From the NCBI GenBank assembly GCA_964019335.1, contig OZ025691.1:124001-188000 (forward strand): a DNA stretch of 64,000 nt, read 5' to 3'. Position 1 is the first letter of the stretch, and each line of letters begins with the position of its first letter. This document shows, piece after piece, positions 1 through 57,316 of the stretch. The notes under the pieces are model-generated. The model worked only from the letters and a program-made list of their open reading frames with translations, did not search any database and was not told where the DNA came from. The position numbers were made by a program, and so were the translations under genes. Origin of the DNA: Diplonema japonicum. Taxonomy: Eukaryota > Protista > Euglenozoa: Diplonemea.

Positions 1-23
1 TCACAGGGATATCCTGCGTACCC

Positions 24-1322
24 ATGACAGACCCTACCTACGGGAAGCTGTCGCCAAGGATTGAGCTGGGGCTACGACCGCTGACACCAAGAGAAAAAGC
101 ACATGAGAGGGCTCAGAGAAAGAGACAGTCTATCACACTGAAATCGCTAACTGGAGTGGAAGTTGATGAAGACGAGGAGGGGAGGGAGCTGGAGGCGAGG
201 CGGAAACTATCATCTCTAGCAACAAGCGACGTCAAGTCAACAGCGTCGATGCGGAGGCTGCTGAACAGCATGGGGACCCTGGCCATGACAGACGAGGACG
301 GTACACAACTGACGCCGCGACTAGCAGAAGGGAGAGAAACACCTAGGGGGATATGGGACGACTCTGTCAAGGAGAGAACAGGGAGAGGGGAGAGGGAGAA
401 ATCCGTGGAGAAGAAAAAGGAGATCGCAACGGAAGACGGGACTGTCTTCAACATCGAGGTCATCTCGTGCTCCACCAAGTCCGAAGCAGGAGAGGATGCA
501 GGCGACGCAGAAGAGGAACAGACAGTAGAACCGGAGATCAGCGCAGGAATGATCAGCACCCCTGTGGCGGTCGTGCTGAAAGTAGACGAGAAGCAAGACA
601 AGGACAACACCGAGAAAGATTCATCTTCTTCATCAACATCAGTCTCGTCTGTGCACTCCCTTAGCCCAGAGGCAATGGCGGTGCCTGTTGTCATTGTTGA
701 CAGGACCCTGGGCCTATCCCTCCCTGCCTTGGAAGAGCCCATTGAGTATCCCAACGACAGGCTCGAACCAAAGTCGAGCAATTTATCATCAAAGGTGAGC
801 TCACGTGCTTCCACACCGAAAATCCCACCATTAAACCTCGGAGGGCTGTCCCCTGTGTCGCCAATGCTTAAAATCCAACCGGGAAGCGACGACGTTCCTC
901 TGATAATAGAACCGGTTCCTGACCCGGAGGAGAAGGAGCGGAAGAAGAAAGCAAACAGTGACGCGGTTCGTAAAATGCTGGAAGGGGTTGGGACAATGCA
1001 GTCGATGGTGGAAAGCCCGAAGGAAAAAGAGAAGGAAAAGGAGAAGGAGAAGCATGATGAGGAAGCTCCTACAGACGAGGAAGGCCCGAGCCTAGACGAG
1101 ATAAAGCGTGTCATTCCACAGGAAGTCATCAACGTGCTGAATCTGAGCGGTGCCATGGGCACTACAAGGTGCTCCGTCCGAAAGATGTACACCCCGAAGG
1201 ACATCGCTGCCTCTTCACTGTGCATAAGGGGTTCGAACCCCTTTGGTTTGAAACCCGACGATATCAAGCCGGGCATTACAATGCGAGACGTTCTGGCAAC
1301 AGCTACTTCTATGAACAGTTAG
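24..1322 (+). CDS. Hypothetical low-complexity (E/K/S/P-rich) protein, probably the last exon of a gene starting upstream of the window
   Basis: 432-aa ORF with coding-like composition. It is preceded by a candidate acceptor (tcacag at 1-6) and followed by homopolymer spacer. No domain recognised. Confidence 0.7.
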   Translation: MTDPTYGKLSPRIELGLRPLTPREKAHERAQRKRQSITLKSLTGVEVDEDEEGRELEARRKLSSLATSDVKSTASMRRLLNSMGTLAMTDEDGTQLTPRLAEGRETPRGIWDDSVKERTGRGEREKSVEKKKEIATEDGTVFNIEVISCSTKSEAGEDAGDAEEEQTVEPEISAGMISTPVAVVLKVDEKQDKDNTEKDSSSSSTSVSSVHSLSPEAMAVPVVIVDRTLGLSLPALEEPIEYPNDRLEPKSSNLSSKVSSRASTPKIPPLNLGGLSPVSPMLKIQPGSDDVPLIIEPVPDPEEKERKKKANSDAVRKMLEGVGTMQSMVESPKEKEKEKEKEKHDEEAPTDEEGPSLDEIKRVIPQEVINVLNLSGAMGTTRCSVRKMYTPKDIAASSLCIRGSNPFGLKPDDIKPGITMRDVLATATSMNS

Positions 1323-2106
1323 ACCCTGGTTGGAGGGGGGTTTTTTTTTTCTTTTCTTTTCTTTTTTTTCTTTTTTTTTTCCACAGACACTAGTTCCCTT
1401 CGTTTGGGAAATGGGAGTTTTCTTTTTTTTTTTTTTTTTAGAAAGAAAAAAAAAAAAAAAAAAAAAAGTAACAGGTCAAAAGACTGCGGTGAACCGGCTC
1501 TCTTTCATCTGCTCCCATTTTCCCCTTTCCCCTTTCCCCTTCGCTTTCATCCTTCTCTTTCAGCTCTCTTCCCATACTTGGTTCCAGGGAGAAAAAAAAT
1601 GAAGGATATTTTCGTTCTAAGAATGGATGGAGTTTACGGAAGGACGAAAGGTTTTTTTTTTTTTTTTTTTTCCTTTGCTCTTCTTGTGTGAAGAATTTAA
1701 TATGAAACGCTTCCCTTTAACTCCCCCCCCCCCCCCTCCTTTATTTTGTATTCCTGTCTTTAGGAAAACCTACGGTTCTATTTTGTTTATTTTTTGTTTG
1801 TCTGCCCCCACCCCAAAAAAAAAGATTTTTTGAACTATTCTTTTTCACATTCCACATTTCTTATTCTTTCCCCCTTTTTTTTTTAAAGCAGTTTTTAAGC
1901 AAGTTTCTTCATCACCAAGAATTGGATTCCCCCCCCCCCCCCCCCCCTATTCTCCTTGCTTTTTTCTTCTTCTTTTTTTCTGCGGTAACTTTAACTTTTC
2001 TTTTATAAACAAAAAACACTATCCCCCCCCCCCCCCCCCTCCCCTTCATCCCATCTTACCATCACCACAAAATTTGTTCCAGGTAAAAAAAAAAAAAATA
2101 ACAAAA

Positions 2107-3099
2107 ATGTTGAAGATAGCCGCCATGATGCTCTTGGTGCCTTGCACCATGGGTATGGACGCCAGGGCTCAGTTCGAGCAGTTCAAGACCGACTTCAACA
2201 AGGTTTACAAGAGCAAAGCGGAGGAGCAGGTGAGGTTCTTGAACTTCAAGGAGTCGCTGAGGAGGGTGGAGGCATCGGGGAACAAGGCCCACGGCGTGAC
2301 GCAGTTCAGTGACATGACCACGATGGAGTTCTCGAAGCTGTACCTCGGTGCCAAGGGCGGTGCGGGAGCACCCAAAACCACGGCAACATGGGACGGGAAG
2401 TGCACCGCCTGCGACAGGTTCCCGGAGGCAAAGGCAAACGCCACCTCATGGGACTGGACAACTAAGGGTGCCGTGACCCACATCAAGAACCAAGGACAGT
2501 GCGGTTCATGCTGGTCGTTCGGCACCACAGGCGACATTGAGGGGACCTGGTTCCTCGCAGGCCACACCCTGACAGCTCTCTCCGAGCAGGAGCTTGTGTC
2601 GTGCGACAAGGTCACCGATGGCTGCGACGGTGGGTGGCCCAAGGACGCCATGAAGTTCGTTGTTCAGAAGGGCGGGCTTGTGACTGAGGGAACCTACCCG
2701 TACACCTCAGGCGACGGTGTTACCGGCAACTGCAAGGAGACCAAGACTACCCCTGTTGCCGCGTCCATCAAGAACTACTACCAGGTTTCGTCCTCCGCCG
2801 CTGGTGAGGCCAACATCCTCCAGCAGCTCCCCCAGGTGGGCCCCATCGCTATTGTCATCAACGCCACCCCCATGCAGGACTACAGGGGCGGGATCGACAA
2901 CCCCCGCAACTGCCCCGGCCAGATGAAGGACCTCGACCACGTTGTGCTCATCGTTGGTTTCGGCGAGGAGAACGGCACCAAGTACTGGAAGATCAAGAAC
3001 TCCTGGGGTGCCTCGTGGGGCGAGGAGGGCTTCTACCGCATTGTCCGTGGTGAGAACAAGTGCGGTCTGGCCATGGATGCCATCCACTCCACCCAGTAA
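2107..3099 (+). CDS. Papain-family (C1A) cathepsin L/F-like cysteine peptidase with signal peptide and I29 prodomain
   Basis: Signal peptide MLKIAAMMLLVP, prodomain ERFNIN-like segment and GVTQFSDMT, catalytic motifs QGQCGSCW, DHVVLIVGFG and YWKIKNSWG. High GC3. Confidence 0.96.
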   Translation: MLKIAAMMLLVPCTMGMDARAQFEQFKTDFNKVYKSKAEEQVRFLNFKESLRRVEASGNKAHGVTQFSDMTTMEFSKLYLGAKGGAGAPKTTATWDGKCTACDRFPEAKANATSWDWTTKGAVTHIKNQGQCGSCWSFGTTGDIEGTWFLAGHTLTALSEQELVSCDKVTDGCDGGWPKDAMKFVVQKGGLVTEGTYPYTSGDGVTGNCKETKTTPVAASIKNYYQVSSSAAGEANILQQLPQVGPIAIVINATPMQDYRGGIDNPRNCPGQMKDLDHVVLIVGFGEENGTKYWKIKNSWGASWGEEGFYRIVRGENKCGLAMDAIHSTQ

Positions 3100-3498
3100 A
3101 CACACGGAAGTCTGGGCTCTCTCCTTTTCTCAACCCCCCCCCCCCCCCCTTCCCCTCGTTTAAAGGCCCATGACAGGGGTCACAAGAGTGCATTGTCGTC
3201 CTTCCATTAATTTTTTTCTTCTTCCTTCTTCTTTTTTTTCCCTTTCTTTGTCTGTCTGTTTCCCTGTTAACCATGTTGGCGGGGAGGCAAGAAAAGAAAG
3301 AAAGAAAGAAAAAAACGAGGTCAGGAGGAAAGAGAATGGATCTTTTATTACGTTTCTTTTCTTTATCCCCCCTTTTTCCTTCTTCTTTTTTTTTTTTTTT
3401 TTTTTTCCTTCTTTGCGTGAAACCTTTTTTTATTATTCTCACCCTTACATGCCACACCGCAACAACAACAAAACAAAAAAAAAGGGGCGCAGAAAGAA

Positions 3499-5249: not shown

Positions 5250-6290
5250 AATGACTTTGGTGGGTTTGCGGGTTTGGTCGGACCACTCTTTTCTCTGTGC
5301 AGTAAGTACTGCGCATTGTCTTTCAAGTATATCGCACGTTCTGCTGGATGCGAATTTCGGCCTTCCGGTGTACCCCTTCAATCGCTTGGGTGCACCTATC
5401 GATCGTAACACCACGGATTCTGTTATTTCCCTGGGCATGAATGGCTTTGGTGCGTGTGCCTCGGCTGTGTCCAGTTATGTTTGCCTAAAACGTGCACTCT
5501 ATCACTAGTTCTAGTCTAGTTACCGACCCCTGCTTGTTCCATTCTAACTTCGTAAGCCACTTGATTACTTCCGGCACAATCTGTGCTCCCATGAAGTTCA
5601 TCTTCAAGTGCTTACGCAGCACAGGGCGTTCCAGACATGTATCCTTTTCTCATTCTTTTCTGCTATCATCTTGGTTGCATCGCAAGAGTTACCATGTTGA
5701 CCAGCAGTTCTGCACAATTTCCGGCTGCGGTACCTTTCAGTCTTTCGGTATGATTCTATGAAGTCTTAGACATTGAGGCATATCTTCGGAAAATTAATTA
5801 CCGTGGTGTACATCGCTTCTTTTCGTACAGATTCATATTCCTGTAGATATGCTCCAGGTATGCTGTGTACCTGCCCGCATCCCCTGCACAGTACTCTTGG
5901 ATCTTCTACCTTGGGGTGGACCATCCCAAGAGCTCCAGTCAGCATTCTCCTAGCGTTGTTCTGTATTTGCCATTTCGTTCTTTGTTTCGCTGTGCACCTT
6001 TTTCAGCAGTTTTTTTATTCTTCTACATCTTCGTGGTGTACATCGCTGCCATCACTGGATCGTGTGTGCGACCTGGGAGCACTATGTCAGTAGGGCGGTG
6101 ATGAACGCATCCGTCTTGCTGCCTCTATCGCGTTCGAGACCCTTTTGTGGCCCGCTTGTCGTGCTCTTGTCATATAAATAGTAACTCCGCTTTCACTGCC
6201 TTCGTCGATGCATAAGTGACTCACCATCTTTCACTTTGGACACGTATCCTTCTTCGTCGAGAATGTTAACGTCTTTGGTTTGATTCAAAA
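5250..6290 (-). pseudogene. Degenerate coding relic, possibly the 3' part of a non-LTR retrotransposon ORF
   Basis: About 1 kb with balanced composition and no homopolymers. Minus-strand fragments RMLTGAL..LCRGCGQVH and VIKWLTKLEW..VTRLELVIE are broken by stops. The family assignment is a resemblance only. Confidence 0.35.
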
Positions 6291-6308
6291 AAAAAAGTTT
6301 TTTTTTAA

Positions 6309-7920
6309 CCCATAACACTCCGGGGCCTATCTACATAGGGGTCCCTTTTTTGCTCCTTTTCATAATCTGAGGGGAAAAATGGCAGCATTCAACCCCCGTT
6401 TGCAGGTAAAACGGGTTTTTTGGACCAGGAAAATTAAAAAAAAAGTTCAAAAATTAATAAAAATACAAAGGGGATGAAGAGTTGAATGGCCGTAGGGTGC
6501 TCAAAAACGACCATGTCAAAATGGGTTGTGCACGGGGAGGTGTAAATTGAGCATCCTGGGACAAAAAAGGCAGCATCAGGATCCCTCAGATGTCTCAGAC
6601 CGAGAGAAGTGCCTATTTGCGGGTGGAATATCGGCCTCGAAATCGTCAAGAGGCCTTTTTGGGGTGATGGAAGAGTGGTACGAAAAAAGCACTTATTTGG
6701 ACAGAGGTGTTGGTTTCAGGTGTAGCATTTGTAGATTGTGCGTTTTGTGTCATTCTTTCAACCTGCAGACCCTGGAGGTGCCCCCTTTGAGTGGCTAGCG
6801 GTCACGTTTGGTGTAATCTGGGGTATCGGGTGTGTGTGCACCACTAGTTGGGTGCCGGGAGTGGTGTTTTTGCAACGTTGGACCCATCAATTAGGCTCTC
6901 TCGAAAGCGCTCTTTAAAGCAGCCAGGGTTGTGTATCTCTTTGGCATCCCTGAACCATATTTTATTTGAAGTGCATGGCAGTTAACTATTGTCACTTCTA
7001 GGGCCCACCAGAAGAGTCTGCAACACCCAACGAAATGCAAGCCCCTCACAGCAGGGCTTCGGCCAGACCCACAGTCGAAAAGTAGCTATCGCAAACTACT
7101 GTGTTGTCATTTCCCCGCAAAGGCTCTGTTAACCCCAGCCCGCTTTTCCACAACACTGAAATCTTCAAGTGCGTGCCCCTCGATTTTGGTGGCGTGGATG
7201 TGAAACGCAAAAGATAACCCGTGCGCGCAGTTTAGGCAGTAGATTTTATCACCGTTTGACTCTTGTGTGTGAGTGAAGTGGAGGCTACTTTTGATTTCCC
7301 AGTAGCGTCTCCTGGGCATCGTGTTACTGAAAAGGGGGATTTTCATGGGTCCTGTGGACCAATACGACTGCTGATTCTGGGCACGCCGTAAACCCATCGC
7401 AATGCTCAATCCGAGTAAGCGGTGGAGTCTTGGGTCGAAATCTTATCAATCTCAGCGTCCTTTTGCCTGTTTGTCTCTTCTTGGATGACGTCTGTTAACT
7501 TGTTATAAAAAAACCGAAGGAATAACCATTTTGCGTCGTCAGGTTTCTGCGTACCACGGGACAGCTTTTTTTCTCCCCACTGGCCTATTTTATGGTCTCT
7601 ATGGGTACCAACTCCCTTACCCATGAAGGTTGGACCTCGTCCGTAGCTGTTTTGGCTTTACCTTTGCGTTTTTTGGGAACAATTTGGGCACAGTATGCAC
7701 ACCCGTTATTTTGCGTTTTTAGCCTATCTACTCGGATTTGGGACCCACTTGGTGGGTGGATAACAAGGTAAAGTGATGCAGCGCAGCATTAATTGCAGTT
7801 GAAAATAACTCCTCACAACAGTCGTTCTTGGAGATCCAGGGGTCGTGGGGACGAAAAAGTACTTAGAGAAAAAAACGATTTTTCAAAACGACAAATATTT
7901 GCGCCTTGGAGTGTTATGGG
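6309..7920 (-). mobile_element. Internally deleted piggyBac-family DNA transposon
   Basis: TIRs CCCATAACACTCC (6309) and GGAGTGTTATGGG (7920), flanked by TTAA and TTAT. Minus-strand transposase fragments in order: FLRFF..IQEETN, YWS..M.RRRY..IKSSLHF..DK, VVCDSYFST, RLFWWALEVTIVNCHAL, and the C-terminal Cys-rich TIYKCYT*NQHLCPNKCF. Confidence 0.9.
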
Positions 7921-10054: not shown

Positions 10055-10190
10055 GGCCATGTTGGCAAGGAAACGCGTTTCCAAGCTTATTTTTGAGGTC
10101 GTTTCCTTAAGAAGGGAACACGTTTCCCTCTAAGTTATCTGAGAAATAAGGAAACGGAAACGTTTCCTCCGTTTCTTGCCACACATAGCC
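10055..10190. mobile_element. MITE, GGCTATG...CATAGCC family (copy 1)
   Basis: Imperfect ~21-bp TIRs (ggccatgttggcaaggaaacg / cgtttcttgccacacatagcc). Internal GGAAACG/CGTTTCC repeats and gtttccttaagaagg are shared with 52816-52971. Confidence 0.75.
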
Positions 10191-10405
10191 ACCCCCCCCC
10201 TTTTTTTTCTGTATGGAGCAAAAGAAGAAAGAAGAAAATTCAGGGAATGGTTTACACCACTATCCCCCCCTCTCCCCCCTTTAACCGCCCCCCCCTACTG
10301 TGCAGCAAGACCTTGAGTTCTTCTCCATCAAATGTTGCAACTAAGATTTGTGTGCAATTTTTGGGACACCAGCTGAACTTTTAGGGGGTGGGGGGTGGGG
10401 GAGAA

Positions 10406-24636: not shown

Positions 24637-26376
24637 ATGCCTACGAAAGCTCTCATTTTCGATGTTGGCGGTGTGATAGTCGCGTCCCCTGTTGTCCGGT
24701 TGCGTGAGTACAGTGTGAAGCTTGGTCTTCGCCCTGAACAGGTAGGCGTTGCCATGGGGCAGACAGAGGCGTTTCATAAATTGGAAAAGGGTGAGATCGA
24801 CCCCGGGCAGTTCGCCGAGTTGGTTGTGTCGCAAATGGGAAACCTGCAAAACAAAGTTAACGGTGAAGAGCTCATGCGCTGCATGACAGGGGGCACAGTA
24901 CACATGGACTTGCTGACAGCCATCGCTCAGATCAAGAAGGAGAAGGGCGTCAAGACTGGTATTATTACAAACAACTTCCGTACAAAGGAAATGTTCCACC
25001 TTGTCGAGGTGCTGACCCCTTACTTCGACGACATCGTGGAGAGCTACGCTGTGGGCATGAGGAAGCCCGACCCGAAAATCTTCAAACTGTCAGCTGAACG
25101 ACTAGACGTTGCTCCTGAGGACTGCGTCTTCATCGACGACCTAGGACAAAACCTCAAAGCCGCCAAACAAACCGGAATGCACACCATTAAAGTCACCAAC
25201 AACGACACCATCTCGTTAATACAGGAGCTCGGTAGAATCCTCGACTGGGACCCTAAATCAGCAATGTACCCACCTGCTGTCAACGCAACAGGCGTTCCGG
25301 AACAACACAAACTGAACACCACCACACTCCTCGCGTATCTGCACCAGCAGCTTCCCCACATTGTTTCGAAGTCTGAATCTATCTCCCGGCTTGAATTTTT
25401 CGGCACAGGGAAGTCCAACCCCACATTTTACATCAGACTTGCGAACACTGGCCGTGAGCTTGTTTTGCGGAAGCAGCCGCCTGGTGAGCTCCTCAAGGGC
25501 GCACACTCCATGGAACGCGAGTACTTAACAATGAACAGGCTGAGCAAGCTCAGCGATGTCCCTGCTCCGACTACACATTTGCTCTGCACCGACAAGTCGA
25601 TCGTCGGGACGGACTTCTTCCTGATGGACTACATGCCAGGGAGGATGTGGACGAAGGGCGGCGCGGTTATCAAAACACTCCCGAAATGGCACTTCACCGA
25701 TGCATATGTCGATGCAGTTCGCACACTGGCTAAGCTGCACAAGCTGCCTTATGAAAGGATGGGATTCAAAGCGAAAACCGGAAGCGGGTGTTACTTCGCT
25801 AAAACAATAGACACATGGGAAAGACAGTACCAAGGGGGTGTGAAGCAAGGGGCGCCTCGCGTGGAACCGTTCGAAAAGCTCGCTGTGGAGCTGAAGAAAG
25901 CGTTGAAGGTAGTTGCTTTTGACAGAAACATGAAGACGCTGACACACGGAGACTACAAGCTGGACAACATGATCATGCACCCCATCGAGCCGAGGGTGGT
26001 GGCGTTGCTGGACTTTGAGCTTTCATCTGTTGGGCATCCGTTTAGCGATTTGGGGTACTTCATGATGTGGCACCGCCTGCCTACGATTATCAACGGGATG
26101 GGGTCTCCCGACAAGATCGTCAGCGAGCAGCAGATCACTCAACGTTATGCGGAGGTCACGGGCTTCCCTGCGCTGGCCCAGCGCGACCTTGAGTTCCTTG
26201 TCTCCTTCTCCATGTTCAAGCTTGCGGGCATCGCACACGGCGTGTGGTCTCGTGCCCTCCGCGGGACCGTCTCCAACGTCAGCAAGGGCGAGGAAACCGA
26301 CCGCATGGGGGCAGGGGTCACCACGCTTTCCTCCAACGGTCTTAAAAACCTGAAGAAATACGATGCAAAAATGTAA
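24637..26376 (+). CDS. HAD-like hydrolase + APH/ChoK-type phosphotransferase fusion (N-terminal half of ACAD10), C-terminal PTS1
   Basis: [30 protein letters not shown]; [17 protein letters not shown]...[27 protein letters not shown]; ends -AKM. Confidence 0.92.
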
Positions 26377-26741: not shown

Positions 26742-27585
26742 ATGAGTGGGACACCTCTGCCTATCAAGCAGTCACGCCTCTTTGACCTGGAGGATCAGTT
26801 CAAGGAGTCGCTCATCGTGTACTTGGATTCTCTGGACACAAGCGATGACGACGATGACGAATATGAGGAGCTAGCCGATCTTGCCTACGCACAGCTGTTA
26901 AGCAGTGCAAACAAGGAAACGTTTGAAACCGAAATCCGGGAGTACTTCCCCATCCACAGTGGAGACATCGCGAGGTTTGTATGGGAAGACCTGGTCAGGT
27001 TGGACGGGGGTACTGATGATGAAGAAAAGGAACAAAACACAGAAGAAGCCTCCGAGGAGCCCGAACCAAAACACGAAGAAGAACAGGAGGAGGAACATAT
27101 AAAGACCCCCGAAAAAGACGAGGAAAAAGAGGAACCGACAACAGAACAAAAACAAGAAGCCCCTGAGGAAACTCGCAAAGAGAGCCCGGTGAAAAAGGAA
27201 TTGAAACAAGAAGGGATAAGGACCCCACCGCCCCCTCCACCACCACCTCCAATTGAGACAAAGGAAACCCATCCCGTCAAAGGAAGTGGTTTCATAACAC
27301 CAGAGCTGGCCCAGCCTTGCAAGGCAAACGAGGCGCAGGTGATATTCACAAGAGAGATGTCCGAACGGACGGGATTTCACATTGTGGAAACGGACTGCGG
27401 GGTTGTTCTGCAGAAGGTGGACCCGGGTACTGCGGCCTGGAGGTGCAACATGCAACAGTTTACAGGGTGTCGTTTGCTGCGTGTGAACGACGCACCAGTG
27501 CAGTCTATTCAAGAATGCCTTGTCTTCTCCAGAACCCTCCGGCTCGTCTTTATCTTCGAGAGTTCTGCACCCTCAAGCAACGGGA
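26742..27585 (+). CDS. Hypothetical protein with PWI-like N-terminus and PDZ-like domain, truncated by the assembly gap
   Basis: Acidic helical N-terminus (FV..LW-like) and PDZ-like TGFHI..V..VDPGTAA..G..LLRVND.PV. The ORF runs into the N gap. Confidence 0.65.
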
Positions 27586-27785
27586 NNNNNNNNNNNNNNN
27601 NNNNNNNNNNNNNNNNNNNNNNNNNNNNNNNNNNNNNNNNNNNNNNNNNNNNNNNNNNNNNNNNNNNNNNNNNNNNNNNNNNNNNNNNNNNNNNNNNNNN
27701 NNNNNNNNNNNNNNNNNNNNNNNNNNNNNNNNNNNNNNNNNNNNNNNNNNNNNNNNNNNNNNNNNNNNNNNNNNNNNNNNNNNNN
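27586..27785. other. Assembly gap (200 N)
   Basis: Run of N. Confidence 1.
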
Positions 27786-28350
27786 AAAAAGAAAAAAGGA
27801 AAAAAAAAGCAAGAAAGAAGTGTTTCATTACTTTACGTTAATCAGTAAGAGAGGGAGATGGTTCTTTTTTTTTTTTTTTTTTTTTTGTTTAAAGGGGCGA
27901 GAACAAAAAAAAAGAAAAGAGAAGCGGGAAGAAAAAAAGAAAATTGCCCCCACTCCCAAAAAAAGAAATCTATGCAACTCAGCTACTCAAACAAAATAAA
28001 ATATAAATCTCATTTTCTCTTCTCTCTGCCTTTTTTTTTTTTTTTTTCTCCTCTCCCCCCCCCTTATCTTCTTCCATCCTCCCCCCCCCCCCCCCCCTCC
28101 CCCTTTATGGTTTCAAGTTTATTCAATGTTTGTTTTTTTTTTTTTCCTATTTATTTTCTTCTTTTTGATTTGTTTTATTTGCTATGAAATGAGGAAAAAA
28201 AAAGGGGGGGGTGGGAGATGACACCCCCCTTCTTAAAACATTTTTACGCTCTTGCTATCATTAGAAAGAAGAAGAAAAAGGAAGAGAAACGTTGCAATTT
28301 TGTTGAATTTTTCATCATCAGCAGCACAACGGGGAAAGCAAGGGGAAAAC

Positions 28351-28387
<37 letters not shown>

Positions 28388-28562
28388 CCAAAAAATGACG
28401 TGGACGGGGTACTAAAACTAGCGTAAAGCAGAGTACCGAACTCCACAGTTTTTAAACCCTTTCGTCTCATGGAATTTTCTTTTTGCCAGCAACTCGACGG
28501 TGGTGGGGAAACATAGTTCAGCTTTGTACCCCCCCTTTTTTTTTCTTCCCTTCTAAACGTTC

Positions 28563-28583
28563 TTGGATTGTTCACCCACTAAC

Positions 28584-28627
<44 letters not shown>

Positions 28628-28641
28628 TTACCCTACTGATG
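28563..28641 (+). rRNA. Isolated fragment of cytosolic LSU (28S) rRNA, peptidyl-transferase centre (H92 A-loop to H93/H73); not a complete rRNA gene
   Basis: TTGGATTGTTCACCCACTAACAGGGAACGTGAGCTGGGTTTAGACCGTCGTGAGACAGGTTGGTTTTACCCTACTGATG is the conserved eukaryotic LSU domain V sequence. The flanks are not continuous rRNA. Confidence 0.92.
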
Positions 28642-30204
28642 GAGAGAGAGCCTAGCAACATACGGCCTGTTTTTTCTTTTTTTTTTTTTTTTTTTTCTTC
28701 CCCCCCCTTTTTTTTCTTTGGTTTGGAGACAACATGAGGAAAGATTAGCTGTCTCAAGTCGTAACGACGTTTTTTTTTTTTTTTTTTTTCTTCTCCCCAC
28801 CCCTCCTTTCTTTCTCTCCTGTTCTTACGTACGGCCCGTCGTGTGCAAAACAGGTTGTTTCGATAATCGAGATTTTTTGTGTTCCAAGAGGCCTAGGGAA
28901 TGTTGTCCCTCTCAGGGGTTTTTACCACCCTGTCAGACAAAGCCCAGTATTTTTTTTTTTTTTTTCCTTCTTCTTTACCTAGTAGGGAACGTGGGGTTGC
29001 TGCATGCTCAGTTGTGATTTACCATAATTCTTCATCACTCCCCCCCCCCCCCTTTTTTTTCGCTAAACAGTCATTATCGATAGCCAACAAGGGTAGAGGT
29101 AGCATTGGGGGTACTTTTCTTTTACAGGAACCTACCCGGTTTGCAAGGAAAAAGAAAAAGAAAAACAGTGTGATCAACCTGGTTTCTTCTTCTTCTAATG
29201 TGTGCTGCCCAGCTCGGCTTGGAATGGACTTTTCAAACAAAAATATAAACGTTTCTCCCCTCCCTGCAGGGAAGGGGGAAACGATAGCAAGACAACACCG
29301 CAAAAAAACAGAGGGGAGATTTATATATAAAAAAAAAAAAAAAATAAGTAAAAAAAAAAGATGGCGCTTTGTTTGTGAAAAAAAAAGTTTTTTGTGTTTA
29401 CCGAATGGAGAAAAGAGTGAGAAAAATAAAATAAAAAGAGAAAGAAGAAAGAAAAAAAAAAAGAAAACAATTTGCACGAGAGGAACCAGCAGGCGAGCGT
29501 TTACGTTTTACGACAAAAAAGATCCAGTGAAAGAAGGAGAGAAGGGGGGGAAAAAATATTTTCCCTTCTCCTCTTTCGTTTTGATGCAAGTCAGCGCGCA
29601 ATCTGCTTCCCTTCCTTTCACTCGACTCGGCTGGTACAGAGTACGTATTTCATGAGTTCAGAGTTTTCGTCACAACTCACAAAGTCTTGGCTTACAAGCA
29701 CGTAGCTCGTTCGCGAAAAGAGAAAGAAAAAAAAAAAGAAAAAAAGTGGGAAGTGCAAGATCAGTTTCCGAACCCTGTAGACGATTTCATAACGGTACTG
29801 GCGGCAGGGGAAGAACAACAAAGGAAGAAAGGAGAGGGGGGGGGGGGGGGGGGGGGGGGGGTTTCCCCTCTTTCTTTTACTTCCTTTGTATTTTTTTTTT
29901 GTTTGTTTCTTTGTGTTTTGAATGACGCTGTGGGTTTGTTTACTCTACTCCCCTTTTCTTCGACAAATAGTACGAAATCGAATCGCTACCACCATTGCCG
30001 GGCCTCGGCTCAGAATGTCTGTTTGTACGTGCCGGGTAAAACCTGGAGAAGTTCTTGCAAAAAGAAAAGCAAGACGCAACTAAACCATCTCTCATTCCTT
30101 GTGGCATCCTTACACCGCTGAGGGTATACAATAAGAGCATATCTACCCCCTCCCTTCCCTTCCCTTCCCTTCCTACCTGCTTACACGTACGAGTAATTCG
30201 AGTA

Positions 30205-30242
<38 letters not shown>

Positions 30243-30430
30243 CTTCCCCCCCCCCCCCCCCCTTTGGACAATAAATCAAAAAAAAAATCTACACCATTGA
30301 CTTCGTCTGCCGCATGTTTCGCGTCGCGCCAAAGACCTTCGCAGTCTCGATCAGCTGGAACGGAACCGAACGATTTAAAAGAAAAAAAAAAATCTCTTTT
30401 TTTTTTTTCTTCTTCTTTCCTCTTCCGGAA

Positions 30431-32463
30431 ATGATGACCCATCCTGCACCACAGGAGCAAAGGAGCGAGGGGAGGGGTGCTTGCACAATGGCGGAAACCG
30501 TGACCAAAAAGTCCTCGAAGGACGATCTTTTCGAAGCTGTGAAGAAATGGCAGAAGCGGGCAACGGAGAGCGAGACAAAGCGGCGGAGCTTGCAAGACGC
30601 AGTCAATGAAATGGAAAGCAGGATCGACGGCTTGATGATGCAGGTCCAACTATACAAAGAGAAGGACAAGGAGTCCACAGAACGCCTCAAAACCGTGACG
30701 CGGCAAAACGAAGAGCAAGACCTGCTACAAGCAAGCCTGGACTCCCTGAACACGAAGTGCAAGGAGGACGCCGAGAAGATCACATCTCTCGAAGAGAGGA
30801 ACAAGGTCCTTGACAAGGAGAACGCCACGCTGAAGGCGGCGACGTCAGGCCTCACAGATGTGAAGATGGACCTGAACCTCGACACCTACAACACACCGCA
30901 GCTCCAGGAAGCCGTACGAGAAAGGGAGCAGCAACTGCGCGAGGCACAGGGCACCGTCGAGGAGTTCCAACTCCGCCTGCAGAACCTCACCAAGTCCCAC
31001 GAGGCCTTCATAGAACAAACCAGAACAGAAACAGAAGCTGAGGTAACACGCAGAGTTGAGAGCACCATTCAAGAGCTCAACAAACAGAAGTCCGAATGGG
31101 AGCAGGACAGGACAGCCATGGTCGAGACACACGTGCGGCAGCTCACAGAGCTTCAAACTATGTACAACGAGCTGAAGGAAGGCCTTGAAAAATCGCAAGC
31201 GTGGACCGCGAAGGACAAAGAGGTGCAGCGTCTGAAGGAAGAAATAGAGAAAATAACAAACGAGTACAACACGCAAGCCGACAGGCTCACCGAGTTCAAG
31301 AAGTACCAAACAGACTGCACGCTCAAGGACGAGCTTATCGCCAACCTCAGGGACCAGATACTAGAGGCCGAGGGTGACATGGCGGAGACACGCACGCTGT
31401 GCATGCAGGCTCTAAAGCAGGCTGGCAAGCCCGAGGGCAGGAACGCAGCTCCCTCTACAGATGGCTCTTCGTCTGCGTACTTGAAGGGCAGCGTGAGCAG
31501 TGCAGCGTCAAGCGCCTCGATGACGCCGCCCCCGTCACCGAAGGAAAAGTCTGATCTCTTTGACATCGCTCTCTCAGGGCGCGCGAAGTCACGGCGCGAA
31601 GTGGAGATCGAGAAGCAGCTCTCACGGTTCAAATCTAGAGTGCGTGCAGACGAGGCTGCCAGACAGCGCAACATGGACGAGGTCGAGTCCTACCGTGCGG
31701 ACTATGTCAACGCCCTCATCACAGAAGTCGAGACACTGCGCAAGACAGCGGCAGACAAGTCGGCAGCACCTTCGGGAGACGTTGTGCGCATGCGGGGCGA
31801 GTTCCAAAGAGAACGCGAGTCCTGGGAAATGGAGAAAATGGAGCTGGAGAAAAAGCTCCAGGAACAGCAGGTATATATAGTTTTAGCCCATCATCAACGA
31901 TGAAAACCTATCTACAGGTGCAGACAACGGACAGTTCGGTGTCTAGAGTGGAAGTGGCGGAGCTGCAGGAGCGCTGCTGCAAGCTGGTATGTGGGAGAAA
32001 CTATTTTATATCTGCACAGGAGGACGTCGAATTGGAGAAGGAATTGTTGGAGAGGGAAGTGGTAGAACTGAAGGAGGGGCACGAGGTGAAGGAAAGGGGA
32101 TTTTCTGGGAAGATCGAGGCGATGAGGCAGCAAGTCGAAGAGTCAGAAGATAAAGGGAAGAAGCTGCAAGAGAAGTTTGCGGACATGGAGGCGACGATGG
32201 GGGTGTCGTTGCAGGCGGCTCAGAAGCTGCGTGAGGCAGAGATCACCATCGCACGGTTGACAGCCGAGATGGAGACTTTGCGGGCAAGCCCAGACAATAC
32301 ATTGCCGAAGTTTCTGCGTGAAAGCAGGTCGCCTCCATTGAATCTATCTCCACCGCCTGAAGAGCTCATCTCTACGAAGGAGGCCCTCGCCGTCGAACGA
32401 AAGGCACGGCTCGAAGCCGTTCGCCAGCAACTCCGCTCCACCATGCGCCCCACCGCTACGTAG
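30431..32463 (+). CDS. Long coiled-coil protein; introns 31871-31917 and probably 31987-32019
   Basis: Heptad-rich ORFs joined by a frame-restoring GT-AG intron. The start is ATG 30431 or 30488. Confidence 0.8.
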
Positions 32464-39434: not shown

Positions 39435-39483
39435 ATTACACATCTATGGAGATTTATCATTATCGTGCCTACGGAGATGCAGA
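39435..39483 (+). promoter_or_regulatory. Conserved upstream leader shared with both tRNA-iMet genes (promoter element or target-site duplication)
   Basis: 49 bp identical to the reverse complement of 39889-39937. A 36-bp copy with 2 substitutions lies at 39664-39699. Confidence 0.7.
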
Positions 39484-39662
39484 ACTGGGGTCAAGGTCCC
39501 CGTCCGAGTCACGTAGGTCTACGCGGCTTGGAATTAAAGTAATTCAGCCCTCTTCGGCTGTTCCAAACAGGTCGCACGGGTTGGCGGAGTCCACAGCTCT
39601 ATCTGATTGCAGAAGAACTGGTCTTCGCCCTATGGTGGCACCTATTGGTATTTTGAAAAAAA
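39484..39662 (+). ncRNA. Unidentified structured ~170-nt RNA or SINE-like insert
   Basis: Starts at the same offset after the leader as the tRNAs, forms several hairpins, and ends TATTTTG-A7. Confidence 0.5.
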
Positions 39663-39699
39663 CGGATATTTATCATTATCGTGCCTACGGATATGCAGA

Positions 39700-39772
39700 A
39701 GCAGAGTGGCGCAGTGGTCAGCGCGGTGGGCCCATAACCCACAGGTCGTAGGATCGAAACCTACCTCTGCTA
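39700..39772 (+). tRNA. Initiator tRNA-Met (CAT)
   Basis: A1:T72 pair, GGG/CCC anticodon stem, CAT anticodon, initiator T-loop GATCGAAA, followed by T5. Confidence 0.97.
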
Positions 39773-39815
39773 GTTTTTATCAACGCGTTATTTGTGGAGA
39801 TAATTGTAAAAAAAC

Positions 39816-39888
39816 TAGCAGAGGTAGGTTTCGATCCTACGACCTGTGGGTTATGGGCCCACCGCGCTGACCACTGCGCCACTCTGCT
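39816..39888 (-). tRNA. Initiator tRNA-Met (CAT), inverted identical copy
   Basis: Exact reverse complement of 39700-39772, followed by a T-run on the minus strand. Confidence 0.97.
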
Positions 39889-40005
39889 TCTGCATCTCCG
39901 TAGGCACGATAATGATAAATCTCCATAGATGTGTAATTACTCAAGGCTTTTGAAGGGAAATTGTTGGTGGTTAAGCCTAGACTCAGTAAAAAGTGGAAAC
40001 TAAAA

Positions 40006-52135: not shown

Positions 52136-53098
52136 ATGACTACAGTAGTGTTGACTCCGTGGGATAACATGACTGAGGAATGCGGGGCGGATGAGGCATC
52201 CGGTGGGAGTGGGGAGGAAGACGCAGTGTCGACTCCGTTGGTGGCCATGGGAACGCTTCTGGTCATCGGAGCTTCTTTCATCAGTTGCTTCGGGGTAAAC
52301 TTACAAAAATTAGCCCACAACAAGAATGCGATGCTCCCCGTTGAGGAGAGGGTGGTCATGTACAAAATGTGGCAGTGGTGGCTGGGAATCTTCGCGATGG
52401 TGATGGGCTCCATCATGGACATGGCTGCCCTGCCCTTCGTACCACTTTCAAGAGTTGCCGCTTTAGGGGCTTCCACAATGGTAGCAAATATCGTGATCAC
52501 CCCTGTGTTCCTTAAGGAAACCCTGACTCGCCACGACCTTGCCGGGTGTGTCCTAGCTGTCTCCGGTACTGTAATCGCCTGTCTTTTCGGAGCAGGCTCT
52601 GAAAGCAAGGTCACCACCCCGTGCCTTCTGAAGTACTTCACCAACCCCCTCTTCATCATGTACTTCGCGTTCGTCACCATCTTCATCGTCACACTATACT
52701 ACTTCATAGTGGGGTTCAGACGAATGCAAGCCACTCTTGTGAGGATGGAGATTGTCGAGGACACCTTGGAATGTGTCTGGGTATGTGTTCCCCCCCCCCC
52801 CCCCCCCCCCCCCAGGGCTATGCATTTTTTGAAAAAAAAGGGAAACGGAAACGGATACGGAAACGTTTCCTTATGTTTCCTTAAGAAGGAAGCCGTTTCC
52901 ATAAGAATTTTGAAAAGTATGGAAACGGGAACGGAAACGGAAACGTTTCCACGTTTCCTGCCAGCATAGCCCCAGGGGAGGGGTACAAAAAAAAAAAACA
53001 GCTCCATGCCAATCTTGAAAAATTAGAGGGCGTACCACGCGACCCAAAGTTCACTTTCGTGACAAAGGTGTGTGTAGCGGGGGAAAAAAAAAAAAAAG

Positions 53099-53139
<41 letters not shown>

Positions 53140-53840
53140 AGTTCGGCCCTCAGTTCTACCCTTGTGTGCATGCGGTGTACGCGGGAACTATAGGGGCGCA
53201 GAGTGTTATGTTTGCAAAGGTAAGTCCATATTTGAAAAAAAAAAAAAAAAAAACCCTCCAGGCTGTGCTGAAGTTCTTAGGAAACGCGATCTACTCAAAC
53301 GAGGACTCCACCCTGACGAGCCTTGGGTACGTTTGTCTGTTTTTGGTGCCGACGGTCGTGTGCCTGTGGAACCAGATTACGTACTTAAACATCAGCCTGC
53401 AGATCTACAGAGATGCTTTGTTCGTGCTGCCCGTGTACCAAGCACTGTGGGTGTCGGCTGGGATTCTGTCGGGTCTGTTCTTTTACCAGGAATACCGGGA
53501 GATCAAGAATTTGAACGCGGCTCTGTTTGGATTGGGGTGCTTTGTCAGTATGGCTGGACTGGTGGTTCTTGCAAGGCGTGAGAGCCTTACGGAGATGCCG
53601 CAGTCACCCAGACCGAACGGTGCCTCTCCTGCCCTCCTCTCTGCTCGCTCTGCTGACAATGATAACGAGCTGGAACTATTCCACATCGACGATGATGACA
53701 ACATGAAGAACAAGACACGAAATTTCAGCACCTCTTACGTGAATCTTGGAGAAGATGGGACGTCTTCCTTCAACACAAACCACGGCCAACACACACCCCT
53801 TCCAAGAATGGTGTCAGATGATGTCACTACTTTGAACTAG
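52136..53840 (+). CDS. NIPA-type Mg2+ transporter (DMT superfamily), paralog 1; introns 52781-53001, 53068-53141 and 53220-53261
   Basis: G.NLQKLAH, WWLG..M..G, LGA...N, FL.E, LN.SL..Y.DAL.VLPVYQ..W, G..FYQEY. The introns restore the frame. Confidence 0.92.
52816..52971. mobile_element. MITE, GGCTATG...CATAGCC family (copy 2), inside intron 1 of NIPA paralog 1
   Basis: TIR GGCTATGC/GCATAGCC, flanked on both sides by CCAG (4-bp TSD); internal GGAAAC repeats. Confidence 0.8.
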
Positions 53841-54196
53841 GAAAAAAAATAATATGAGAAAAAAAAATTTTTTTTTATGTGTGAATAGTTTTTTTTTTCT
53901 TTTTTTTCACAACTTGTGCTGAGCAAAGAAAGAGAAAGAAGAAGAAAAAAAAAAGGGAAAGGGGGGGGGGGGGGAAATGTAGCTTTTTCCCCCCCTCTAT
54001 TTTTTGCTTGAGCAAGGGCGTCCTGCTACATACTGCAGGCACCCTTAAATAGTTTCTTTTTTTTTTTTTTTTTTTTTTTAATTCGTGTGAACAAATAAAA
54101 GACATAAGTCGTTAAGAAGTTCTTTTTTTTGGGGGGGGGGAGGAAACACATAAAAAAAATCCTTCTGGCTACCGTTTCCTCAAAAGTATTTTCAAG

Positions 54197-54227
<31 letters not shown>

Positions 54228-54409
54228 AAACAATGGGAAGTTGGATATGGGCGGGAGTGGGAGGAAAAGAAAGAGTTTCCTAGAGATAGAAATAACCTCA
54301 AAACACCAGAGAAATCCGTACATAATGTAGTCATCATGTAATCAAGAAAACAGGTGATTTCTTGTACAGGTGATAACTAGCTCTGGTCTTTTAAGGGGTA
54401 CTTTCAATG

Positions 54410-54443
<34 letters not shown>

Positions 54444-54573
54444 CGTAAATGGTGTACATTTCTGTATTGTTTCTGTTCAAAAAAAAAAAATCAGTTTCTC
54501 TTGTTCTTTTCTGATTCGTTCCACCCTTACCTTTATTATCTAAAACACATAAAGCTCCCACAGACCGGCACCC

Positions 54574-54604
<31 letters not shown>

Positions 54605-55339
54605 ACACACAAACCTGTGTTGGGCTGTAGAGTGTCCCCCCCCCCCTTTTTTAGGTGGTTGTGTTAGCTGACTTAGTGACATCCCCCCCCCTTTTTTTTC
54701 CCTTATCTCCAGTAGGTTTCAAGCCGAAAAGAAAAAAATTCTTTTTAAGAATCTTAAGAAAGAAAAAAAAAAAGAAAAAAAAAAAGAAGGGGGAAGGAAG
54801 AAGCAAAAGTTGGACTTTACGGTGATGACATTCGGGGGGCATCCCCCTTTCTTTTTTACACCCCTCACTCTTCCGTGAATTTCTTATTCAATGCGAAAAT
54901 GTAAGGAACGAAGAAAAAAGGAAAAAAAAAAAAAAAAAAAAAAAAAAAAGAAAAGGAAAAATAAGAATGAAAACCCCGAAATACTAGTTGTTGGGAAAAG
55001 AAACTTCTGCAAATTTATGTTTTTTTTTTTTTCTTTTTTTTTTTTTAAATTTTTTTTTTCTTATTATTCGCTTTTTTTCCTCCTTCTTTATGTGCCGATC
55101 ATCCCCCCTCCCTTTTTTTTTTTTTTTTCTGTTCTTCAATGCAGGTATTCACGCACTCTTTTTCGCTGTTTTTTTTTTCTTCTTCTTTTTTTCTTTTTTT
55201 TTTTTTTTTAAATTTTTAATCAGAAAAAAAAAAGGGAGGGGAAACAAAACAAAAAATCAAAATCTGCCAGTTTACACCTTTCACTTGTAAAATGGAAAAT
55301 AAAAGTCTTGTCAATCTCTAACCCAGTTCAGAAACACTT

Positions 55340-55376
<37 letters not shown>

Positions 55377-55514
55377 CTTTTTTTTTTTTTCTTTTTTTTT
55401 TTTTTTTTGACTTCTGCGGCCGGACATGTTTGCTGCGCGCGAGAGAAAAGGTGACTTGATGATGACCAGCACATTCCGAGTGCCCAACACCGCAGTTTGC
55501 TTTTCTCATTGTAT

Positions 55515-55572
<58 letters not shown>

Positions 55573-55641
55573 CTTTCTTTTTTTTTCTTCTTCTTTTTTT
55601 TTTACAAAAGAATTATCGTTCAAAAATTATTTTTATTACTC

Positions 55642-55966
55642 TGAGCTCGCCCGGAAAAAAATGTCAACAAATGACCCCTCCTAGCAAAAAACCCCGTTAA
55701 ATTTCTAAGTAGAAAAGTAGTCCGACACCCTTTGTGTGCAGAATTGCGGTCTAGGCTTGATCACTATATAGATCATAGAATGGTTTTTTGGAAATGAGAA
55801 ATAACCTAGACTCCATTTTTTTATTTTCGTTTTCCCGTGAAAAGCGACAGGAGGGATGGACGCAGAATGAAAATCTGTGAAACCCCTTGGGTCTGCTGCC
55901 CTTTTTTTTTTTGCTCAAAACAAACTGTTAAAAAAAAGTGTTGACATTTTAATCTAGACGAGCTCA
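55642..55966. mobile_element. MITE-like element with ~28-bp imperfect TIRs
   Basis: tgagctcgcccggaaaaaaatgtcaaca / tgttgacattttaatctagacgagctca. TSD not evident. Confidence 0.6.
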
Positions 55967-57316
55967 TATACTACTTGTGTTGAGCAAAAAAAAAAAAAAA
56001 GAAAACTTTTTCGCGGCTTTTAAAATCTGTTTGGTTGGTTTCTTCTTTTTTTTCTTTTTTGCTCATCGAACTACAACTACATATAGCCATAAAGAGTTAT
56101 TTTTGTTGAATTTATACAGCAAACGAAAACAAAAACAAGAGGGAAAAAAAAATATCCGCTAAGTGCACAAACGAAAACCCCCCCCCCTTTTTTTTGTTTT
56201 TATTTTATGTACCTTTTTTTGTTCTTCTCTTAACTTTCCAAATAAGAAAAAAGCCTCATTGACGTCAAATCTCAAACTCTAATTGTCTGAAGTAACTCGA
56301 CCACTGCAGGAAACACTGCAGAAAAAAGAAAAAAAAAAGAAAAAAAACTGGCCCTCCCCTTACGGCGATCCTTGCAATAGGACTTTTTCTTGGAAGATAT
56401 TTGTTTTTCTCTCAGCCGGCCATTCAAAATTCAAAACACTTTGGAATCCTTGAGGCAAACTCTTCCCCTTTTTTTTCTCCTCTTTGTTTGATATCAATGC
56501 GAGGGGTAATACCCTTCTCCTCCCCCCATTCTTCCAAGTTTCTTTGTTGTGCCCCCCCCCCCCTTTTTTTTGTTCTTTTTTTTCAATTCTGCAGTTGATT
56601 TCCCTCGAATCCCTCAAGGAACGTCTGAGAATCCAAACTATCGGGGTGGGAGGGCAAATTATTATTATTTTTTTTTCCCGCGATATTGAATGTGTATATT
56701 GGTTTGGGGATGTGTGGTGTGACTTCGGTGATCCAAATCTGGAGTTTGGGTGTCTGGGTCTTCAGACCCATTCAAAGGCTGTTGTTCTCCATCTTTCGGC
56801 AAACGACACAATTTGTTCCCCTTTTAAAAGCATACGAGTTTTTCGCAATATTTTCGCGTCACATAGCGCCTTCGGTAAAAAAAAAGCGGCTATTCTTTCC
56901 GTCAATTTTTGAATCAGCCCCTGAAAATGCGGGGGGGGGGGGGGGGGGGGGGGAGGGAATATGCGGAGGGGAAAATATTTCGTTTCGCAGGGGATCAAAC
57001 TGCAGAATAAAAAAACCACTATTCTGGCGGCCGCGCAGGGTTTTCACAGTTACCCCCCCTCGTCAGGATGTCGGATGCCTCGGAGGAATAAAGCGTGCCT
57101 CTCTGGAATAGTTAAACTCTCCACCACCTCCCCCCCAAAAAAATATTTCTCTTTTTCTTTTTTCTTCTTCCACATCCACTATTATTATTCTTCCACCTTT
57201 TTCACCCCCCCCATTACATCACAACGGGAGGGGAAAAAAAAAAGAAGGTTGACCGATTTAAAAAAAAAAAAAAGGAAGGGGAAAGTAGTGGTTTAACAAA
57301 CAATAATAATAATGTC

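What the first reader, a model, noticed from the sequence alone, without database searches (positions are those of the whole stretch)
28390..30381. Gene-free structured island carrying an isolated peptidyl-transferase-centre module of LSU rRNA
Seen: a near-perfect 79-nt copy of the LSU A-loop/H93 core (28563-28641) sits in ~2 kb with no credible ORF. The island consists of hairpin-forming blocks separated by homopolymers (GTGGA/TCCAC with GGTACT/AGTACC; GAGACA/TGTCTC; CCTGTT/AACAGG; AGGGA/TCCCT; CAGGG/CCCTG). Weaker motifs follow in LSU 3' order: a sarcin-ricin-like ACGAGAGGAACC (29476-29487, AGUA motif broken), TGTAGACGA (29776), GTATTGTAA (30202) and CGATCAGCTG (30348). These short matches alone could be chance. 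Inference: neutral rDNA decay would not spare only the catalytic core. The options are a selected rRNA-derived ncRNA (decoy or mimic for PTC-binding or modifying factors, co-transcribed in the + polycistron), a recent capture of an rRNA fragment, or an artefact next to the gap.
Basis: partly seen in the sequence, partly recalled or inferred. Interest (0 to 1): 0.8.

Follow-up and report, generated by a model that had tools for sequence, protein, structure and literature searches.

The report
Stray 28S rRNA snippet between genes
A 90-base exact copy of part of the large ribosomal RNA sits alone in ordinary spacer DNA of what is likely a diplonemid protist, and is most likely a recently pasted-in, functionless scrap of the cell's own ribosomal DNA, a kind of debris already reported by the thousand in a diplonemid genome.

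Summary
The rRNA copy is real and longer than reported: 90 nt (28563-28652), identical to 4 of 120 public LSU loci, of the continuous-28S, diplonemid-like type. It runs 16 nt into a variable region, lacks the equally invariant H89 region and the partner strands of H90 and H73, and both ends stop sharply, so it is not a spared catalytic module. The 'structured island' is not special: homopolymer-separated blocks fill this window's non-coding DNA and the blocks fold no better than controls. Three of the four 'LSU-order' motifs are not LSU words (0, 1, 0 of 41 loci); only the sarcin-ricin 11-mer has weight. No snoRNA or Pfam signal. About 3600 dispersed 28S pieces are reported in Diplonema papillatum (PMC10161547), roughly 0.8 per 64 kb. 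Best reading: a recent capture of an rDNA fragment into a spacer or long 3' UTR (0.65). Junctions, expression and conservation are untested. A selected rRNA-mimic RNA is not excluded (about 0.05). Interest 0.15.

The parts
28563..28652 (+). 90-nt sense copy of eukaryotic LSU rRNA: H92 (A-loop), 3' strand of H90, H93, 3' strand of H73 and 16 nt reaching into the following variable region (helix names recalled; pairing read from the Rfam structure line)
   Evidence: Rfam RF02543, about model columns 2924-3002 plus tail; 90 of 90 identical to L052, L053, L054, L062 and 89 of 90 to five more of 120 loci
27586..27785 (.). 200-N assembly gap; the contig that holds the copy starts 777 nt upstream of it
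27786..28562 (.). 5' flank: homopolymer-rich non-coding DNA, no alignable rRNA; possibly 3' UTR of the gene cut by the gap (inferred)
   Evidence: long 3' UTRs in D. papillatum, PMC10161547 section 7
28400..28448 (+). hairpin with an internal loop; it also spans a 40-nt GT...AG stretch that resembles this genome's short introns; no family assigned
   Evidence: z -3.57 when trimmed; hairpins of like strength in control spacers; sequence
28653..30430 (.). 3' flank: homopolymer-rich non-coding DNA up to the next gene
29476..29486 (+). 11-nt exact match to the sarcin-ricin loop, without its helix; chance or an older scrap
   Evidence: 1 of 1000 shuffles if asked only for conserved words 3' of the core; 37 of 300 if asked for any conserved LSU 11-mer in the 1000 nt around the core; five one-mismatch versions elsewhere in the window, all inside long ORFs
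26742..27584 (+). upstream protein-coding gene, cut by the gap; no Pfam hit
30431..31903 (+). downstream protein-coding ORF (charged, coiled-coil-like by eye; start codon chosen by eye); no Pfam hit

Best explanation
A 90-base stretch identical to large-subunit rRNA lies alone in homopolymer-rich non-coding DNA, and it is most likely a recent, neutral insertion of a fragment of the organism's own rDNA, likely captured while a DNA break was being end-joined. Shown: the identity, the sharp ends against relatives, the lack of other rDNA parts, of a target-site duplication and of an A tail, and the ordinary make-up of the flanks. Inferred: the diplonemid host, the end-joining route, the young age (0 differences in 90 nt puts divergence under about 3% at 95%, if relatives stand in for the host's rDNA) and the lack of function. 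If it lies in a 3' UTR or in the + strand polycistron it would be transcribed in passing and decay with the spacer or mRNA. It overlaps the peptidyl-transferase region likely by ascertainment: invariant rRNA is the part that a reader without tools can recognise.
For: 90 of 90 identity to 4 of 120 LSU loci; L052 is a continuous full-length LSU, the diplonemid state according to PMC9082867. The copy reaches into variable sequence and omits invariant neighbours; anchored extension beyond either end scores no better than random spacer (219-600 of 600 upstream, 71-600 of 600 downstream, 7 loci). Flank-to-LSU local alignments are matched by 15-138 of 200 shuffles in all 10 tests. No second rRNA piece in the 64 kb by BLAST with 14 loci (best other E 0.19). 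No adjacent target-site duplication and no A tail. Flanks fold like controls; the copy alone folds at z 0.00 and its predicted fold lacks the A-loop hairpin. Base rate: about 3600 28S pieces in a ~280-Mb D. papillatum assembly (PMC10161547), i.e. about 0.8 per 64 kb (my arithmetic). Precedent for the route: in yeast, rDNA pieces are among the fragments captured at breaks, and 60-150 bp inserts most often (PMC10802722, preprint, passages). Leaving out study P1 as a possible source, 6 runs of 2 studies hold 0.64-0.70 of the words of 28390-31900, more than the 42% coding part can supply, so the flanks are real DNA of this organism.
Against: The host's own rDNA was not available, so 'sharp ends' and 'no differences' rest on relatives; by eye each end has a few bases that could be decayed rRNA, although this did not pass the test. 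Conserved LSU words are mildly in excess on the sense strand of the flanks (9-mers 5 against 2.04, 13 of 300 shuffles; 8-mers 14 against 9.41, 22 of 300), and the sarcin-ricin 11-mer is rare if tested alone (1 of 1000). Two weak echoes of the core lie within 350 nt downstream (5 of 500 shuffles reach their summed score, though 7 of 504 window tiles do too). No empty allele was seen. What part of 28S the D. papillatum pieces come from is in a supplement that could not be read. The taxon is inferred; a protein search gave no organism names.
Confidence: 0.65

Rival explanations
1. One copy of a 28S-derived dispersed repeat family (SINE- or TRIM-like) that spreads through an RNA intermediate with the help of the host's retrotransposons.
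For: PMC10161547 section 8 likens its ~3600 28S pieces to SINEs and TRIMs and reports many retrotransposon ORFs; SINE28 is a mammalian precedent (PMC10946416 passages).
Against: No target-site duplication next to the junctions, no A tail, the 3' end is not the end of the rRNA, and no second copy in 64 kb. Copy number in the genome could not be tested.
Confidence: 0.15
2. Assembly or polishing artefact near a contig end: abundant rDNA reads were merged into, or used to 'correct', a unique locus.
For: The copy lies 777 nt from a 200-N gap in homopolymer-rich DNA; perfect identity is what polishing with rDNA reads would leave (inference).
Against: Runs of two further studies hold much of the flanking sequence; unique sequence lies on both sides of a piece far shorter than a read. 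Junction words were not seen one by one.
Confidence: 0.1
3. A selected rRNA-derived RNA (stand-alone ncRNA or 3' UTR element) that presents the A-loop and H93 as a decoy or sensor for rRNA-binding or rRNA-modifying factors or snoRNPs.
For: Sense orientation in a + strand gene array; zero differences; mild excess of conserved LSU words and the sarcin-ricin 11-mer downstream; one strong hairpin 115 nt upstream.
Against: Partner strands of H90 and H73 are absent; no structure above background; the copy alone is not predicted to form the A-loop hairpin; ends do not follow conservation; three of four supporting motifs are not LSU words; no other Rfam family near its gathering score among 48 matches up to E 10.
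Confidence: 0.05
4. Remnant of an old, larger 3'-LSU insertion that decayed by homopolymer expansion, its core kept current by gene conversion from the rDNA array.
For: Sarcin-ricin word in the right order and strand, and mild word excess; the permissive Rfam run stretches a 38.5-bit alignment upstream to 28416.
Against: That alignment scores below the core-only hit (57.9 bits) and below the gathering score; shared words are not collinear; whole-rRNA word sharing equals controls (which filtered out low-complexity words, the sarcin-ricin word among them); the sarcin-ricin word lies 824 nt after the copy, against about 40 nt in L052.
Confidence: 0.05

Closest known systems
Dispersed 28S rRNA gene pieces of Diplonema papillatum (PMC10161547, section 8 read)
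   Same: Short piece of 28S (under 10% of the gene) outside the rDNA array, likely in the same protist group.
   Different: Likely another, unnamed diplonemid; which 28S segments the published pieces cover, and whether they form a family, is in Additional file 1, which was too large to read.
rDNA pseudogene fragments in the human genome (PMC5381670, passages)
   Same: rDNA-derived strings far from the arrays, read as junk; reverse transcription argued not to be the main source.
   Different: Those are graded, decayed remains of whole units; this is one short piece with no differences and no decayed neighbours detected.
Fragments captured at double-strand breaks in yeast, including rDNA and NUMTs (PMC10802722, preprint, passages)
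   Same: Size (60-150 bp favoured), rDNA as a donor, no retroposition marks.
   Different: Shown at an induced break in yeast; here the route is only inferred and no empty site is known.
SINE28 of mammals (named in PMC10946416, passages; original paper not read)
   Same: 28S-derived sequence outside rDNA.
   Different: No copy family, target-site duplication or A tail found here.
Fragmented LSU rRNA genes of kinetoplastids and euglenids (PMC9082867, abstract and Results)
   Same: LSU modules separated by low-complexity spacers.
   Different: There all modules lie in order within one operon; here only one piece is present, and diplonemid 28S is continuous.

Membership tests
Dispersed rDNA fragment (orphan piece) | High identity to rRNA of its own lineage | tested here: met
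   90 of 90 to 4 of 120 loci, including 16 variable nt; relatives stand in for the host's rDNA
Dispersed rDNA fragment (orphan piece) | Rest of the rDNA unit absent from the flanks | tested here: met
   the 200-N gap 777 nt upstream hides unknown sequence
Dispersed rDNA fragment (orphan piece) | Physically joined to both flanks in the genome | tested here: inconclusive
   word shares of 0.64-0.91 in 10 runs support the flanks, not the junctions; no reads were laid
Dispersed rDNA fragment (orphan piece) | Not conserved at the syntenic site (neutral) | not testable with these tools
   no own or related eukaryote genome held
Functional or fragmented LSU rRNA gene | Other LSU helices present in order nearby | tested here: not met
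Functional or fragmented LSU rRNA gene | Partner strands of H90 and H73 present | tested here: not met
   Rfam alignments show the 5' strands poorly matched or absent; anchored extension fails
28S-derived SINE or retrocopy | Target-site duplication | tested here: not met
   longest shared word between the 62-nt 5' and 68-nt 3' flank is 6 nt and lies about 50 nt from the 5' junction
28S-derived SINE or retrocopy | 3' A-rich tail | tested here: not met
   sequence after 28652
28S-derived SINE or retrocopy | Many copies with shared ends | not testable with these tools
   one copy in 64 kb; genome not held
Box C/D snoRNA cluster | C and D boxes with a guide of 10 nt or more antisense to rRNA (motifs recalled) | tested here: not met
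   no perfect guide of 9 nt or more at any of 14 CTGA boxes; with G-U pairs 6-11 nt, within the control range 5-12 over 51 boxes. One minus-strand block (29038-28979) has a C box, a D'-like box and a 10-nt guide but a non-canonical last box
Single-hairpin H/ACA-like (AGA box) RNA | Pocket 14-16 nt from an AGA or ACA box (recalled) | tested here: not met
   checked by eye for the 28400-28448 hairpin only: 3+4-nt loop, 9 nt from the stem's end; no Rfam snoRNA hit near gathering score
rRNA exon between group I introns | Group I core and further rRNA exons in the flanks | tested here: not met
   no group I family among Rfam matches; one 14-nt word shared with an inserted locus (L031, E 7.4)
rRNA-mimic regulatory RNA | Discrete expression, conservation with covariation, factor binding | not testable with these tools
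   no reads laid, no relatives' loci available

The most novel reading that the evidence does not exclude
The A-loop/H93 copy is kept by selection inside a long 3' UTR or ncRNA, with a sarcin-ricin word further on, and acts as a ribosome-mimic decoy or sensor for large-subunit assembly and modification factors; the thousands of 28S pieces reported in diplonemid genomes would then include a class of rRNA-mimic regulators.
Probability: 0.05. Interest if true: 0.75.

Novelty: new member of a known kind. Interest (0 to 1): 0.15.

Why it matters
On the best reading it matters little: one more stray rDNA piece, useful at most as a marker of break repair in diplonemids and as a caution that rRNA words in spacers and UTRs can mislead annotation and RNA-seq mapping. 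If it proved conserved and expressed as a discrete RNA, it would be a eukaryotic mimic of the peptidyl-transferase A-loop and would make the unexplained 28S pieces of diplonemids testable as regulators.

Tried and rejected
No whole genome is held for this window. No read-level data on the junctions or on expression were obtained. Pattern scans: core pattern in viral contigs 0 hits, 5' junction in genome contigs 0, 3' junction in viral contigs 0; these collections hold no diplonemid genomes, so the blanks mean little. Earlier-findings look-ups gave nothing. Considered and dropped: intron-split rDNA (prompted by inserted loci L028, L031, L035, L074, L077, L079, L095); snoRNA cluster on either strand (CTGA is skewed 2 on + to 12 on - in the island against 23 to 29 in controls, unexplained); spliced protein gene (Pfam blank; best-frame coding scores of 17 island blocks -0.10 to 0.06 against -0.004 to 0.155 for 9 presumed exons, so a short-exon gene is unlikely but not excluded); degenerate ends of the copy (not significant); tandem repeats (only homopolymers and purine runs); bacterial promoter and terminator scan at chance level. 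Protein search for taxon names: 4 hits, none naming an organism. The Atlas gave no answer for the upstream protein. Supplements: 7 files of PMC10161547 searched, 0 hits, Additional file 1 unreadable; 2 files of PMC9082867, 0 hits. Seven paper searches listed no report of an A-loop-mimic RNA in euglenozoans, judged from titles and abstract starts only.

Full report
Setting. The window is eukaryotic: the long ORFs with family matches all lie on the + strand, short GT-AG introns with A-rich tracts are visible by eye, and introns and spacers are full of homopolymers. One-strand gene arrays and long 3' UTRs are described for Diplonema papillatum (PMC10161547, passages and section 7), and short canonical introns, with A-rich 3' tracts in one species, for other diplonemids (PMC12621601, passages). 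I therefore treat the host as a diplonemid; this is inferred, as a protein search returned no organism names. No genome is held for the window.

The rRNA copy. Rfam finds one LSU match in the 64 kb, at 28539-28623, 57.9 bits. BLAST against them shows 90 of 90 identity over 28563-28652 to four loci and 89 of 90 to five. L052, one of the four, is a continuous full-length LSU (model 1-3401), the state reported for diplonemids (PMC9082867, abstract and Results). In the Rfam structure line the copy holds one small hairpin (H92, A-loop), a 3' helix strand whose partner is missing (H90), a second hairpin (H93) and another unpartnered 3' strand (H73) (helix names recalled). Among 77 distinct segments its last 16 nt are variable (0.53 and 0.28 mean conservation), while the absent 90 nt from -160 to -71 are 0.84-1.0 conserved. 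So its limits do not follow function. Folded alone it scores z 0.00 and the A-loop hairpin is not predicted.

Ends and flanks. Anchored extension from either end scores no better than random spacer in 7 loci. Local alignments of each flank to the matching LSU region are reached by 15-138 of 200 shuffles in 10 of 10 tests. No target-site duplication adjoins the junctions and no A tail follows. No second rRNA piece turned up in the window.

The 'structured island'. The gene-free stretch is 2645 nt (27786-30430); 53841-57316 is longer and richer in homopolymers. Eighteen island blocks fold no better than 60 control blocks, and strong 49-nt hairpins are about as frequent as in controls, 4 in 288 against 10 in 953 windows (the step of 4 missed the 28400 hairpin, which would make 5). 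Of the named stems only 28400-28448 is strong. No snoRNA box-and-guide pattern, no Pfam match in 25 frames, and coding scores mostly below those of presumed exons.

The short motifs. The 11-mer at 29476 is the sarcin-ricin loop (40 of 41). Tested alone it is rare (1 of 1000 shuffles); among all conserved 11-mers it is not (37 of 300). Conserved 8- to 10-mers are mildly in excess on the sense strand (22, 13 and 30 of 300 shuffles). One-mismatch versions of the 11-mer occur five more times in the window, inside long ORFs, against 1.15 matches expected in all, so shuffles understate its chance in this genome. Whole-rRNA word sharing equals controls (low-complexity words filtered). This is the main residue against the neutral reading, and it is weak.

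Reality of the locus. Ten runs of one organism label in three studies hold 0.64-0.91 of the 364 sampled words of 28390-31900. Leaving out study P1 as a possible source, six runs in two studies hold 0.64-0.70; the coding part is 42% of the stretch, so roughly 38-48% or more of the island's words are present if sampling is even (my arithmetic). This supports the flanks, not the junctions, which remain untested.

Mechanism and comparison. D. papillatum carries about 3600 dispersed 28S pieces and more than 1400 NUMTs, mostly intergenic (PMC10161547 section 8): about 0.8 28S pieces per 64 kb. In yeast, rDNA pieces are among the fragments joined into breaks, with 60-150 bp favoured (PMC10802722, passages). 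Dispersed rDNA debris is also described in human (PMC5381670, passages) and 28S-derived SINEs in mammals (PMC10946416, passages). A 90-nt piece without differences or retroposition marks fits capture at a break. It works like a NUMT-type insertion with rDNA as donor; it fails the tests for a SINE or retrocopy (duplication, tail), for an rRNA gene module and for snoRNAs. The supplement that maps the D. papillatum pieces could not be read and may bear on the SINE-like rival.

Verdict. Observation partly confirmed; a new member of a known kind; capture 0.65, SINE-like family 0.15, artefact 0.10, selected mimic 0.05, old decayed insertion 0.05; interest 0.15.

Noticed in passing
window 39435-39937: Two identical tRNA-Met(CAT) genes (39700-39772 +, 39816-39888 -) form a 115-nt inverted repeat. 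A third copy of their 37-50-nt upstream element (39435-39484) precedes not a tRNA but a ~170-nt structured stretch (39485-39655, z -3.46, 1 of 200 shuffles) that ends in a T run and has no Rfam match up to E 5: a candidate unannotated Pol III RNA.
   Followed up: partly
L028 (also L031, L035, L074, L077, L079, L095): Kinetoplastid-type LSU loci with an insertion just 5' of H93; about 620 nt in L028 with group I intron-like motifs by eye, longer in L035 and L074, where an apparent ORF lies on the opposite strand. PMC9082867 reports no group I introns in its euglenozoan set.
   Followed up: no
L070, 3' of the matched pattern: LSU sequence stops a few bases after the H73 strand and runs into apparent protein-coding DNA: another orphan piece or a chimeric contig; the only one of 120 loci with a long non-rDNA 3' flank (loci with short flanks could not be classed).
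   Followed up: no
window 29038-28979, minus strand: C box, a D'-like box and a 10-nt perfect antisense match to the LSU core, ending in a non-canonical box; snoRNA-like but against the direction of the gene array.
   Followed up: partly
window 29235-29283 and 10055-10191: Two very stable hairpins made of matching purine and pyrimidine runs (z -7.6 and -7.5); no family assigned.
   Followed up: no
window 52136-53840 and 60877-62400: Two NIPA-type magnesium-transporter genes about 7 kb apart, the first apparently split over two ORFs.
   Followed up: no
window 24637-26376: HAD hydrolase domain fused to an APH-like phosphotransferase domain in one 579-aa ORF.
   Followed up: no
window 5250-7900: About 2.6 kb of complex, homopolymer-poor DNA without an ORF of 150 aa, unlike the neighbouring spacers; possibly a decayed mobile element.
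   Followed up: no
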